DNA of 64,000 bases from Brevibacillus humidisoli. GTDB taxonomy: Bacteria; Bacillota; Bacilli; Brevibacillales; Brevibacillaceae. The DNA lies in NCBI RefSeq assembly GCF_020923435.1, contig NZ_CP087263.1:885970-949969 (forward strand), read 5' to 3'. This document shows, piece after piece, positions 46,301-48,112 of this stretch. Position 1 is the stretch's first letter, and each line of letters opens with the position of its first letter. Under the pieces are notes generated by a model that ran no database searches, was not told where the DNA came from, and was given only the letters and a program-made list of their open reading frames with translations. Position numbers and translations under genes: made by a program.

Positions 46301-46363
46301 TTCCTGTCTGTCTACAAGGATAAAGCTTCCGGGAAGACTGCGATGGGGGTGACTGCGATATGA
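43301..46363 (+). CDS. trans-AT PKS tri-domain protein: N-truncated AT/acyl-hydrolase-like domain (GTSMGE), malonyl-CoA:ACP transacylase (GHSLGE), FMN-dependent trans-enoyl reductase (PksE-like)
   Basis: Domain 1 begins mid-domain (..[34 protein letters not shown]), with in-frame stops only 84 nt upstream and no FPGQGSQ segment. Domain 2 is complete ([13 protein letters not shown]...GHSLGEY...GAFHS). Domain 3 is nitronate-monooxygenase/PfaD-like ([33 protein letters not shown]...). Confidence 0.85.
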   Translation: [1020 protein letters not shown]

Positions 46364-48112
46364 GATTGGAATTGGCGGCATACCCATCCACAATCCAATT
46401 CACATACTCTCCCCTGCTTTTCGTTCATGGGTCGTTCCATGGGGCGTGGTGCTGGAAGGAACAGTTTCTCCCCTATTTTTCTGCAAAAGGTTTCCCCTCC
46501 TACGCGCTTAGTTTCCGGGGACACGGGGAAAGCGAGAGCATGGAACAGCTTCAAACATGTTCCTTGCGTGACTATGTGGACGACGTACTGCAAGCGATAC
46601 AGCTCATCCAGAACAAACCCGTTTTGATCGGCCATTCTATGGGAGCGGCCGTGGTTCAAAAGATCCTTCATCTGCATCCGGACAAAATCAAAGCGGCTGT
46701 TCTGATGTCCCCCGTTCCACCGAATGGGATGTGGAAAGACGTGCTGCGGTTACCATGGGGAGGGGGTCTCTACCCTACTTCAGTTGACCAAAGTATTGCT
46801 GCAGTTTCAATCAAAAATGCTGCTCCCACTCCTGGAGGGAGAGGAAACAAACCCCCATATCAGGATCGAAAACTCTCCTTTTTACTTTCAAACAACCACT
46901 CAGAAGTGGGAACCACCTGCGATCACAATCAATCACCAATCGTTCCCTCTACCGCGGCGGGCTACGGTATCGTCTTTTGGTGCGGGCGGCAGCCTTGGTC
47001 ACCTGATCCTGGAGGAACACGTACCAGACCATTTTGAAAAGCAAACCCTTGACACTTACTATATCCCCCTATCTGCCAGAACCTCCGATCAACTACGACG
47101 GACGATCAAGGCATACATTCAATTTTTTACGCAGTAACGGCGGTTTTTTGCGAAAGGAGGGGACCACACACTCTTCCCTATCATGTTTACGCTTTGTACG
47201 GGACGAACAGCCTTTTCAGAACGGGTAGTCTTTATCGTGGATCGGCTTGAAACGTTGGTGGAACATTTCCATCGCTATCTAAGGGGCGAACGTCACCCGG
47301 ATATTATTGCAAAAGATGCGACGAGCCCGCTCCCAGCAGCAAGCGATCAGGATCAGGCGCGAATCCAAAGCTGTCTCGAAAAACAGGCATGGCATGATAT
47401 CGCCAAACAATGGGTTCATGGAATCGATATTTCTTGGGAATCGTTCTTTCACCCATTTCATGTCCGGCGAATCCCTTTGCCAACCTATTGTTTTGAACAA
47501 CAATCGTTTCCGATCCCCAAACCGGCATCGCCTATACTGGATCACAACCACTCGATGACAAAAACGAGGACGGTAATCGGTGATTTGGCCCAAATGCCTA
47601 GAGACGTAGACGGACTTGACACGGCACATGGCACCACTTCTATGGCAGGCAATGGCAACCGGCAATCCGATCATGTTGTCCAAACAGGTCATGCAGTGGA
47701 CGGGCTGTTCCGGGACGTATTTGCGAAGATCATCAACATTCCAGCCGATCACATCGAGCTGTCTGCGCCACTGGACCAATACGGCTTTGACTCGACGATG
47801 GTTATTTCCGTTGCCAACGAACTGGAAAACTACTTTGGTACGGTACCGAAAACACTCTTTTTTGAGTGTCAGACGATCCAAGAGGTAATCGATTATTTTG
47901 TCCAGGAATATCGGGATAAGATCCCGATGATCATGCGGGAAAAAGATAGGGATCCAGTCAATCACCCGCTTCGCTCTGCTGTTGCGCAGTCCGCACGAAG
48001 CGAGGGACAGGATCAACGGGAGCAAGCTGATGACGAAGATATGATTGAAGATCTTACCCAGGCCATCTTATCCGATCGAATCTCTGCAGAAATGATCCTG
48101 AAAAAACTGTAG
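46360..48112 (+). pseudogene. relic PKS module: alpha/beta-hydrolase N-terminal fragment fused to a KS C-terminal fragment, then an in-frame TAA, post-KS linker and ACP
   Basis: 46360-~46750: hydrolase fragment (HGSFHGAWCW...GHSMGAAV...LMSPVPPNG) lacking the Asp/His half. From about 46724 in another frame: KS C-terminal part from the second-His region (GYHGEGVSTLLQLTKVLLQ...SPFYFQ...PRRATVSSFGAGGS.GHLILEE). TAA at 47135-47137 interrupts the LSARTSDQLRRTIKAYIQFF-TQ linker in frame. Then MFTLCTGRTAF...LPTYCFEQQ and an ACP (YGFDSTMVISVANELE). Confidence 0.6.

What the first reader, a model, noticed from the sequence alone, without database searches (positions are those of the whole stretch)
46360..48112. 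PKS module remnant: hydrolase fragment spliced to a KS tail, with an in-frame TAA in the post-KS linker
The first 130 codons look like the Ser-elbow half of an alpha/beta hydrolase (GHSMGAAV) with no catalytic Asp/His half. The reading then switches frame into the last third of a ketosynthase, running from the NxGH region to the GAGGS.GHLILEE end, so no active-site Cys or first His is present. A TAA at 47135-47137 sits exactly where intact modules in this window have a Gln/Glu linker residue (compare ...ILQFLEQREKISLPNLAYTLQ in the 52687 module). Translation then resumes in the same frame into a canonical flanking subdomain and an ACP. A nonsense codon plus domain truncations cannot be homopolymer sequencing artefacts. 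This is real gene decay or a deletion joint.
Basis: seen in the sequence. Interest (0 to 1): 0.6.

Follow-up and report, generated by a model that had tools for sequence, protein, structure and literature searches.

The report
Deletion scar in a decaying PKS locus
A deletion in a Brevibacillus humidisoli antibiotic-type (polyketide) gene cluster fused half of a hydrolase gene to the tail of a synthase gene, which also carries a premature stop codon; this is ordinary gene decay, although the public annotation lists the pieces as normal proteins.

Summary
Codons 1-131 of an alpha/beta hydrolase (46360-46752) abut, one base out of frame, the last ~90 codons of a ketosynthase. The KS tail starts exactly at the His of the GH motif (46754). 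It is followed by the post-KS flanking subdomain, which contains one TAA (47135-47137), then an intact ACP and a docking-like tail (to 48112).

The window is Brevibacillus humidisoli chromosome. The nearest intact relatives of the right-hand piece are 770-800 aa stand-alone KS0-ACP proteins, a non-elongating type with EAAANGS in place of HGTGT. The TAA aligns with a Tyr codon in them, not with Gln/Glu.

Synteny anchors both sides. Trans-ER followed by hydrolase is seen in one related cluster. KS0-ACP followed by the next KS is seen in three others. A simple deletion of at least 1.5 kb, possibly many PKS modules, therefore explains the joint.

The remnant has only one stop in 453 codons and no excess loss of conserved residues, so the event is recent. 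Elsewhere in the locus, AT1 is 5'-truncated and there are three 1-nt frameshifts.

Caveat: the assembly has homopolymer frameshifts in hemE, norB and glcF. Small indels are therefore unreliable, and no reads could be inspected. Verdict: a real, ordinary pseudogene scar of low novelty.

The parts
46360..46752 (+). N-terminal half (codons 1-131 of ~268) of an alpha/beta hydrolase. It has the GHSMG nucleophile elbow and lacks the catalytic Asp/His. Its ATG overlaps the TGA of the upstream AT-AT-ER gene (ATGA).
   Evidence: Pfam Abhydrolase_6 covers profile positions 1-107/217 only. 62% identity over aa 1-131 to the full-length hydrolase at L001:13257-14063 and 61% to the L008 hydrolase. ORF coordinates.
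46752..46754 (+). Deletion joint. The last hydrolase base is 46752 (TTA = L131). The first KS0 codon, CAT, starts at 46754. Base 46753 (C) fits the third base of the KS0 Gly codon (GGC CAT in L002). The reading frame shifts by +1.
   Evidence: Codon-level comparison with the L001 and L002 genes. No DNA repeat at or near the joint.
46360..47037 (+). Chimeric 225-aa ORF publicly annotated as 'alpha/beta hydrolase' (P0073). It consists of 131 genuine residues followed by 94 residues of out-of-frame KS sequence.
   Evidence: P0073: 100% identity, 225 aa, B. humidisoli.
46754..47017 (+). C-terminal tail of a KS0 domain, running from the second catalytic His (GH motif) to GAGGSLGHLILEE.
   Evidence: Alignments to P0002, P0003, P0004, L003 and L006. 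Pfam KAsynt_C_assoc at 33.2 bits.
47018..47134 (+). First part of the post-KS flanking subdomain/linker.
47135..47137 (+). In-frame TAA. It aligns with Tyr in the closest orthologues (FFEEY / FFEQY), so a single-base TAY>TAA change. It is followed by a locally diverged patch (RRFFAK-GGDH against KKYDAEWEAN) that contains an SD-like AAAGGAGGGG at 47153-47162.
47138..47533 (+). Remainder of the flanking subdomain, up to the LPTYCF...PIPKP motif.
   Evidence: Pfam RhiE-like_linker profile 20-66 at 23.7 bits, below the cutoff of 27. The tblastn match to the L001 KS0 ends at 47533.
47711..47896 (+). Intact acyl carrier protein domain. The phosphopantetheine Ser (GFDS) codon is at 47792-47794.
   Evidence: Pfam PP-binding at 50.9 bits against a cutoff of 20.8. 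0 of 22 family-invariant positions changed.
48044..48112 (+). Conserved C-terminal docking-like tail (IEDLTQAILSDRISAEMILKKL) and the TAG stop.
   Evidence: Conserved in P0003, P0006, L003, L006 and L007.
47237..48112 (+). 291-aa ORF with a GTG start, publicly annotated as 'acyl carrier protein' (P0001). It is the 3' remnant of the KS0-ACP gene. An alternative ATG lies at 47183.
   Evidence: P0001: 100% identity, B. humidisoli, contig of 4,908,260 bp.
43220..46363 (+). Upstream trans-acting AT1'-AT2-ER gene. AT1 lacks its first ~54 profile positions (no GQGSQ motif; GTSMG at the active site).
   Evidence: Pfam Acyl_transf_1 covers profile 55-305 for AT1 against 1-281 for AT2. Internal alignment. 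NCBIfam fabD and PfaD above cutoff.
48132..52686 (+). Downstream KS1-DH-KR module, broken by three single-base indels: +1 at about 49887-49890, -1 at 50022/50023, and an extra G at 51900 within the KR.
52687..57417 (+). Last PKS gene, MT-ACP-KS0-ACP-crotonase (1576 aa, uninterrupted). Its start and its C-terminal crotonase end are both natural.
   Evidence: Pfam. The start matches the start of the L002 2920-aa protein at 54% identity. The second KS reads EAAAFGS. At least 20 PKS proteins end with the same crotonase.

Best explanation
The region is a genuine deletion scar in a partly decayed trans-AT polyketide synthase locus of Brevibacillus humidisoli.

Ancestral state (inferred). The operon ran AT-AT-ER, then a ~268-aa alpha/beta hydrolase, then an unknown stretch that probably included further PKS modules. 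This was followed by a stand-alone ~770-aa KS0-ACP protein, then KS-DH-KR, then MT-ACP-KS0-ACP-crotonase.

The event (shown). A non-homologous deletion joined hydrolase codon 131 to about codon 373 of the KS0-ACP gene, out of frame.

Consequences (inferred):
- The hydrolase lost its catalytic Asp and His.
- The KS0 lost everything upstream of its second His.
- Whatever lay between the two genes was lost.

The left product is now a 225-aa chimera translated by coupling to the AT-AT-ER gene. The KS0 tail has no start codon of its own. A Tyr>TAA nonsense change in the flanking subdomain is a second lesion.

Both lesions are evolutionarily recent, because the rest of the frame, the ACP and the docking tail are still pristine. 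The joint, the stop and the homologies are shown directly. The size of the deletion, the order of the two events and the loss of product formation are inferred.
For: Endpoints:
- Homology to full-length hydrolases stops exactly at L131.
- Homology to KS0-ACP proteins starts exactly at the GH-motif His, one base later.

Synteny:
- Left: in L008 a trans-ER (61% identity) is followed directly by the orthologous hydrolase (61%), then an MT and a PKS. In the window the hydrolase ATG overlaps the ER gene's stop.
- Right: in L002, L006 and L007 the KS0-ACP gene is followed immediately by a KS that is 59-67% identical to window KS1.

Against an assembly collapse: no nucleotide repeat links the joint to anything else in the window.

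Recency:
- One stop in 453 codons.
- 3 of 56 family-invariant positions changed in the KS tail plus linker, and 0 of 22 in the ACP. This is within the range of intact family members.

Other decay in the same locus:
- AT1 is 5'-truncated.
- Three 1-nt indels lie in KS1-DH-KR, none in a run longer than 3 bases.
- A further deletion-type joint, a NarG N-terminal fragment fused to an MFS fragment, lies at about 24340.

Source identity.
Against: - No reads or second assembly could be examined.
- The assembly has frameshifts at homopolymers in hemE (C5G4), norB (T5) and a glcF-like gene (T7). Its base-level accuracy is therefore imperfect.
- No close relative (>60% identity) of either broken gene exists in the databases searched. 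The ancestral sequence, and hence the deleted interval, cannot be reconstructed.
- The lack of decay in the remnant is equally what an artefactual deletion would show.
- One related locus (L001) has the hydrolase downstream of the KS0 gene, not upstream.
Confidence: 0.75

Rival explanations
1. Assembly artefact. The real genome has an intact hydrolase gene, intact KS0-ACP gene and intervening DNA. The joint is a mis-join or collapse in a long-read assembly, and the TAA is a consensus base error.
For: - The same 64-kb window has homopolymer frameshifts in genes expected to be functional, namely hemE, qNor and a glcF-like gene.
- The remnant shows no accumulated decay.
- Only one genome of the species is available.
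- The junction 22-mer was not found in any metagenome contig.
Against: - Collapses need repeats, and the two joined genes share no sequence.
- The demonstrable errors are 1-nt homopolymer indels, not kilobase deletions or T/C>A substitutions.
- Two other truncation or fusion scars (AT1 and NarG'-MFS) lie in the same window. Independent mis-joins at that density in a closed 4.9-Mb contig are unlikely.
Confidence: 0.12
2. Functional remodelling. The deletion shortened the assembly line. The surviving 291-309 aa ORF (flanking-subdomain remnant, ACP and docking tail) now serves as a stand-alone carrier protein that feeds KS1. On this reading the small frameshifts downstream are sequencing errors.
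For: - The ACP and the docking tail are perfectly conserved (0 of 22 invariant positions changed).
- PGAP calls the ORF an ACP.
- The last PKS gene, AT2-ER, the PPTase and LoaP are intact.
- The crotonase terminus is natural.
- The assembly is known to contain indel errors.
Against: - No usable RBS or start. The SD-like AAAGGAGGGG lies 20-22 nt from the ATG at 47183, and there is none before the GTG at 47237.
- Promoter-like sites occur no more often than chance.
- The three downstream indels are not in homopolymers.
- Conservation is equally explained by recency.
- The only condensing KS left is KS1.
Confidence: 0.08
3. Not a simple deletion but another kind of rearrangement. For example, it could be the novel junction of a tandem duplication or a transposed segment, starting from an ancestor ordered KS0 - MFS - hydrolase as in L001.
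For: In L001 the orthologous hydrolase lies downstream of the KS0 gene. A hydrolase(N)>KS0(C) junction is the signature of a tandem-duplication joint in that gene order.
Against: - No second copy of either gene exists in the window.
- The hydrolase is translationally coupled to the ER gene here, and ER>hydrolase adjacency is conserved in L008.
- KS0-ACP>KS1 adjacency is conserved.
- A single deletion is the more parsimonious explanation.
Confidence: 0.05

Closest known systems
Stand-alone KS0-ACP proteins of trans-AT PKS clusters (P0002; P0003 from Clostridia MAG GCA_026414765.1; Verrucomicrobia and SAR324 MAG loci L003, L006, L007)
   Same: 42-57% identity from the GH motif through the flanking subdomain, the ACP and the ILSDxISAE docking tail. 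Followed by an orthologous KS in the same way.
   Different: The window copy lacks the first ~372 residues (docking helix, Cys region, EAAANGS region). It carries a TAA and is fused out of frame to a hydrolase fragment.
PKS-associated ~268-aa alpha/beta hydrolases (L001:13257-14063; L008:10001-10782)
   Same: 61-62% identity over residues 1-131. Located next to a trans-ER/PKS.
   Different: The window copy ends at residue 131 and lacks the Asp/His of the triad. No specific NCBIfam family is reached: BioH scores 23 bits against a cutoff of 207.
Art9/Art28 (BioH-like esterase and BioC-like malonyl-ACP O-methyltransferase) priming system of aurantinin-type trans-AT PKSs (PMC8302727)
   Same: In L008 the orthologous hydrolase is followed by a class-I SAM methyltransferase and then the PKS, resembling the esterase/MT pairing. 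Such systems occur in Brevibacillus.
   Different: Only weak, sub-threshold BioH and BioC matches. There is no MT gene in the window. This is a lead for the hydrolase's ancestral role, not a membership claim.
LoaP-regulated trans-AT PKS operons of Bacillales (e.g. difficidin in Bacillus velezensis; from my own knowledge)
   Same: A LoaP gene is confirmed next to the operon (216.9 bits against a cutoff of 125). There is a promoter-like site and a terminator-like hairpin in the leader.
   Different: Here the regulated operon is partly pseudogenised.

Membership tests
Alpha/beta hydrolase fold (Pfam Abhydrolase_1/6) | Nucleophile elbow G-x-S-x-G | tested here: met
   GHSMG at residues 91-95. Pfam scores of 71-73 bits.
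Alpha/beta hydrolase fold (Pfam Abhydrolase_1/6) | Catalytic acid and His in the C-terminal half; full-length domain | tested here: not met
   Only profile positions 1-107/217 are matched. Homology to full-length relatives ends at residue 131 of 268. The relatives carry the D...H further on.
Ketosynthase domain (PF00109 + PF02801) | Active-site Cys and first catalytic His (HGTGT) | tested here: not met
   The region is absent. The remnant aligns only from the GH motif onward. Intact orthologues themselves have EAAANGS instead of HGTGT, so they are KS0.
Ketosynthase domain (PF00109 + PF02801) | Second catalytic His (GH motif) and C-terminal GxGGxNxH..EE motif | tested here: met
   HGEG at 46754 and GAGGSLGHLILEE ending at 47017. 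Pfam reports only KAsynt_C_assoc, at 33.2 bits.
Trans-AT PKS post-KS flanking subdomain (PF22336 RhiE-like linker / PF22621) | Complete linker domain above the Pfam threshold, uninterrupted | tested here: not met
   Interrupted by the TAA. The part after the stop matches profile 20-66 at 23.7 bits, below the cutoff of 27. Homology to orthologues is clear throughout.
Acyl carrier protein (PF00550) | PP-binding domain with a conserved Ser in the (G)xDS motif | tested here: met
   50.9 bits against a cutoff of 20.8. GFDS Ser at 47792-47794. 0 of 22 invariant positions changed.
Acyl carrier protein (PF00550) | Expressed and phosphopantetheinylated | not testable with these tools
   No convincing RBS or start. 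Promoter scan at chance level.
BioH/Art9-type methyl esterase | Score above the NCBIfam BioH cutoff; paired O-methyltransferase | tested here: not met
   BioH scores 23.2 bits (window) and 29 bits (L001) against a cutoff of 207. The L008 MT scores 37.7 bits for BioC against a cutoff of 185. There is no MT in the window.
Pseudogene / deletion scar | Truncated relative to intact homologues at a sharp point, with frame disruption, within conserved synteny | tested here: met
Pseudogene / deletion scar | Lesion present in the organism's DNA rather than only in the assembly | not testable with these tools
   No reads available. The junction 22-mer is absent from metagenome contigs.

The most novel reading that the evidence does not exclude
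The scar may record a very recent natural module-deletion event that left a working, shortened trans-AT assembly line. The orphaned ACP with its intact docking tail would act as a new stand-alone loading carrier for KS1. The chain would be released by the C-terminal RpfF-like crotonase domain. On this reading the three downstream 1-nt frameshifts are assembly errors.
Probability: 0.08. Interest if true: 0.45.

Novelty: new member of a known kind. Interest (0 to 1): 0.18.

Why it matters
The value is mainly practical.
- Two public protein records are fragments of a broken locus: the 225-aa 'alpha/beta hydrolase' and the 291-aa 'acyl carrier protein' of B. humidisoli. The first contains 94 residues of out-of-frame KS sequence.
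- Genome-mining tools would count this as a trans-AT PKS cluster, although it is most likely non-productive.
- It is a clean, base-resolved example of how biosynthetic clusters are lost: non-homologous deletion plus point lesions. It was caught early, before the remnant decayed.

It does not open a new biological question.

Tried and rejected
- **3'-truncated cluster.** I first thought the cluster was also cut short after 57417. This is rejected: at least 20 PKS proteins end with the same ACP-crotonase. P0112, which looked like an 88% relative, is the B. humidisoli protein itself.
- **7-nt duplication in the KR.** I first read the KR frameshift as a 7-nt tandem duplication. This is rejected: PAPCY matches PVPHY in relatives, and the lesion is a single extra G at 51900.
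- **Local double frameshift around the TAA.** The two T6 runs could in principle hide one. This is rejected: neither alternative frame resembles the orthologues.
- **Shared junction motif.** TACCATG occurs at both the hydrolase/KS0 joint and the NarG/MFS joint. There are 11 copies in the window against 5.3 expected, with no extended consensus, so it is treated as chance.
- **P0005 as an intact hydrolase-KS fusion.** Rejected: its hydrolase is a C-terminal thioesterase.
- **Searches that found nothing useful.** The 225-aa ORF was not found by the look-up of encoding contigs. No papers mention B. humidisoli. No papers combine trans-AT, pseudogene and remnant. The genome-contig scan returned only distant MAGs and no Brevibacillus. 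The junction 22-mer is absent from metagenomes.
- **Art9/BioH-type role for the hydrolase.** Not supported by scores.
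Full report
**Source and setting**

The window is chromosome of Brevibacillus humidisoli.
- The 291-aa ORF at 47237-48112 is identical to the NCBI protein 'acyl carrier protein [Brevibacillus humidisoli]' on a 4,908,260-bp contig.
- The 225-aa ORF at 46360-47037 is identical to 'alpha/beta hydrolase [Brevibacillus humidisoli]'.
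- The 1576-aa protein at 52687-57417 is UFJ41786.1/WP_230045410.1.

The finding lies in a compact trans-AT PKS locus:

| Coordinates | Strand | Gene or feature |
|---|---|---|
| 41285-41944 | - | LoaP antiterminator (NCBIfam 216.9 bits, cutoff 125) |
| 42354-43145 | + | PPTase |
| 43301-46363 | + | AT-AT-ER protein (fabD and PfaD above cutoff) |
| 46360-48112 | + | the finding |
| 48132-49934 | + | KS |
| 50064-52686 | + | DH-KR |
| 52687-57417 | + | MT-ACP-KS-ACP-crotonase |
| from 57916 | + | unrelated TRAP transporter genes |

**Observation: the hydrolase half**

The ORF at 46360 matches alpha/beta-hydrolase profiles only over their first half, for example Abhydrolase_6 positions 1-107 of 217. 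It is 62% identical, without a gap, to residues 1-131 of a 268-aa hydrolase encoded next to a related PKS (L001). Similarity ends abruptly at ...KDVLRL (L131, 46750-46752). The relative goes on to supply the Asp and His of the triad. The window sequence instead reads 94 codons of unrelated residues to a stop at 47037.

**Observation: the KS tail, linker and ACP**

Shifting the frame by +1, similarity to ketosynthase proteins starts at HGEGVSTLLQLTKVLLQF (46754). This is the His of the GH motif. Similarity continues through GAGGSLGHLILEE (to 47017), the flanking subdomain, an ACP and a conserved C-terminal tail. The ACP scores 50.9 bits for PP-binding, and its GFDS Ser is at 47792-47794.

Base 46753 (C) fits the third base of the Gly codon that precedes this His in relatives (GGC CAT in L002). 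The joint is therefore defined to within one base.

The only stop in the 453 codons from 46754 to 48112 is the TAA at 47135-47137.

**What the right-hand piece was**

The nearest intact relatives are stand-alone proteins of 770-800 aa with KS and ACP domains. They include P0002, P0003 and homologues in Verrucomicrobia and SAR324 MAGs. P0004 and P0005 are related KS proteins without an ACP. All have EAAANGS where condensing KSs have EAHGTGT. The lost domain was therefore a non-elongating KS0.

In the family alignment the TAA aligns with Tyr in P0002, P0003, P0004 and P0005 (FFEEY/FFEQY/FIERY). This is a one-base TAY>TAA change. It lies in a family-specific loop (Y..DAEW) that the window's own KS1 and KS2 lack.

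The 12 codons after the TAA are the only locally diverged patch (RRFFAK-GGDH against KKYDAEWEAN). Neither alternative frame fits better.

**Synteny supports a simple deletion**

On the left, in L008 (ERZ25039480 contig_41695) a trans-ER 61% identical to the window's ER domain is followed directly by the orthologous hydrolase (61%). A methyltransferase and a large PKS come next. In the window the hydrolase ATG overlaps the ER gene's TGA.

On the right, in L002, L006 and L007 the KS0-ACP gene is followed immediately by a KS that is 59-67% identical to window KS1.

Both flanks are thus in ancestral positions, and one deletion between them explains the joint.

The minimum loss is 137 hydrolase codons plus about 372 KS0 codons, roughly 1.5 kb. 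In every relative the KS0 gene is preceded by PKS modules. The real loss may therefore be tens of kilobases. This is inference.

One relative (L001) has the hydrolase downstream of the KS0 gene. This keeps a rearrangement alternative alive at low probability.

**Real or artefact?**

Arguments that the lesions are real:
- A blastn comparison of 46300-48200 against the whole window finds no repeat that could drive an assembly collapse.
- The locus has further lesions. AT1 of the 1020-aa protein starts at Pfam profile position 55, lacks GQGSQ and has GTSMG at the active site. It is 5'-truncated.
- The KS1-DH-KR reading frame carries a +1 at about 49887-49890, a compensating -1 at 50022/50023, and an extra G at 51900 in the KR.
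- Elsewhere in the window, a 55-residue NarG N-terminal fragment abuts an N-terminally truncated MFS-PAS ORF at about 24340.

Arguments for caution:
- hemE, a qNor gene and a glcF-like gene are each split by a single-base indel at a homopolymer (C5G4, T5, T7). That is the usual signature of long-read consensus error.
- Small indels in this assembly are therefore not trustworthy. The PKS indels are not in long runs, so they are only probably real.
- A kilobase deletion between unrelated genes and a T/C>A substitution are not that kind of error. Even so, without reads their reality stays an inference. I put it at about 0.75-0.85.

**Age**

At positions invariant in all other family members, the remnant differs at 3 of 56 sites in the KS tail and linker and at 0 of 22 in the ACP. 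This is no more than intact members do. Together with one stop in 453 codons, it means the inactivation is recent.

**Function now**

- The 225-aa chimera is probably translated by coupling but cannot be a hydrolase.
- The KS tail has no start codon of its own.
- The ACP ORF lacks a well-placed RBS. The SD-like AAAGGAGGGG at 47153-47162 lies 20-22 nt from the ATG at 47183.
- Promoter-like sites occur at chance frequency.
- The most likely state is a non-productive locus.
- A minority reading, that a shortened line uses the orphan ACP, cannot be excluded.

**Comparison and novelty**

Decay of a biosynthetic cluster by deletion and point lesions is a familiar phenomenon. The specific remnant is undescribed: no paper mentions the species. 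Public annotation presents the pieces as ordinary proteins.

The hydrolase's ancestral role might resemble the Art9 esterase of aurantinin-type priming (PMC8302727). BioH and BioC scores are far below threshold, so this remains only a lead.

**Verdict**

This is ordinary gene decay of low interest.

Noticed in passing
window 11761-12824; 16138-18499; 2005-3404: Three housekeeping-type genes are each split by a single-base indel at a homopolymer. hemE (URO-D profile 3-214 | 214-346) breaks at CCCCCGGGG, about 12388-12396. qNor/norB breaks at T5, about 16786-16790. A glcF-like Fer4+CCG gene breaks at T7, about 2681-2687. These are probably long-read consensus errors, so small indels in this assembly are unreliable.
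   Followed up: partly
window 23918-25655 (joint at about 24335-24345): A second deletion-type joint. The first ~55 residues of respiratory nitrate reductase NarG (...[14 protein letters not shown]) abut an MFS transporter that lacks its first ~90 profile positions and itself carries a C-terminal PAS domain. The nitrate-respiration locus looks like a patchwork of fragments.
   Followed up: partly
window 43220-44068: The first AT domain of the AT-AT-ER protein is 5'-truncated (Pfam profile 55-305). It has no GQGSQ motif and has GTSMG instead of GHSxG. In-frame homology extends 12 codons upstream of the annotated ATG. This is either another deletion scar or a degenerate AT/AH domain.
   Followed up: partly
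window 49887-50023: A compensating pair of single-base frameshifts lies 135 nt apart in the KS1 flanking subdomain: +1 at about 49887-49890 and -1 at 50022/50023 (ATTGAT[T]GG). The ancestral reading (VKAGKEIAALFAADEDMETMMDAWVSKGKYAKILELWVKGVPID) is in another frame, and the current frame hits a stop at 49932. It is odd that two indels cancel each other. They could be real or assembly errors.
   Followed up: partly
window 51894-51903: A single extra G at 51900 (ATGGGA-G-CCT) splits the KR domain between ORFs 50064-51962 and 51967-52686.
   Followed up: yes
window 56137-57417: The last PKS protein ends in ACP plus a crotonase-fold domain. Its best NCBIfam matches are PRK08788 and RpfF (DSF synthase), both below threshold. 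At least 20 PKS proteins of 1000-4000 aa in public data end the same way. This suggests a crotonase-type terminal (release?) domain family.
   Followed up: partly
window 54298-55600 (KS of the 52687 gene): The second KS of the locus also lacks the first catalytic His (EAAAFGS). Only KS1 (48132-49934, EAHGTGT) looks condensation-competent.
   Followed up: partly
loci L002, L003, L006, L007 (match at 10001 onward); P0002, P0003: A conserved family of stand-alone KS0-ACP proteins carries the STLLQLTKVLLQF motif, a Y..DAEW loop and an ILSDxISAE C-terminal tail. It occurs in trans-AT PKS clusters of Clostridia, Verrucomicrobia, SAR324 and Brevibacillus. In L002, L006 and L007 it is followed directly by an orthologous KS.
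   Followed up: partly
window 41285-42300: A LoaP antiterminator gene lies on the minus strand. A strong promoter-like site (42000-42029, 11 of 12 positions) is followed by a terminator-like hairpin (42276-42298) just upstream of the PPTase/PKS operon. This is the layout expected for LoaP-dependent read-through.
   Followed up: no
window 40001-42000: GC content drops to 0.39, against about 0.50 elsewhere, at the left edge of the PKS locus. An HSDR_N-domain ORF (39901-40971, minus strand) lies next to it. This is a possible island boundary.
   Followed up: no
L008 10001-10782: The orthologous hydrolase in this metagenome contig is itself split into 182-aa and 77-aa ORFs in different frames, probably an assembly frameshift. 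It is followed by a class-I SAM methyltransferase and then the PKS, reminiscent of Art9/Art28 esterase-methyltransferase pairs.
   Followed up: partly
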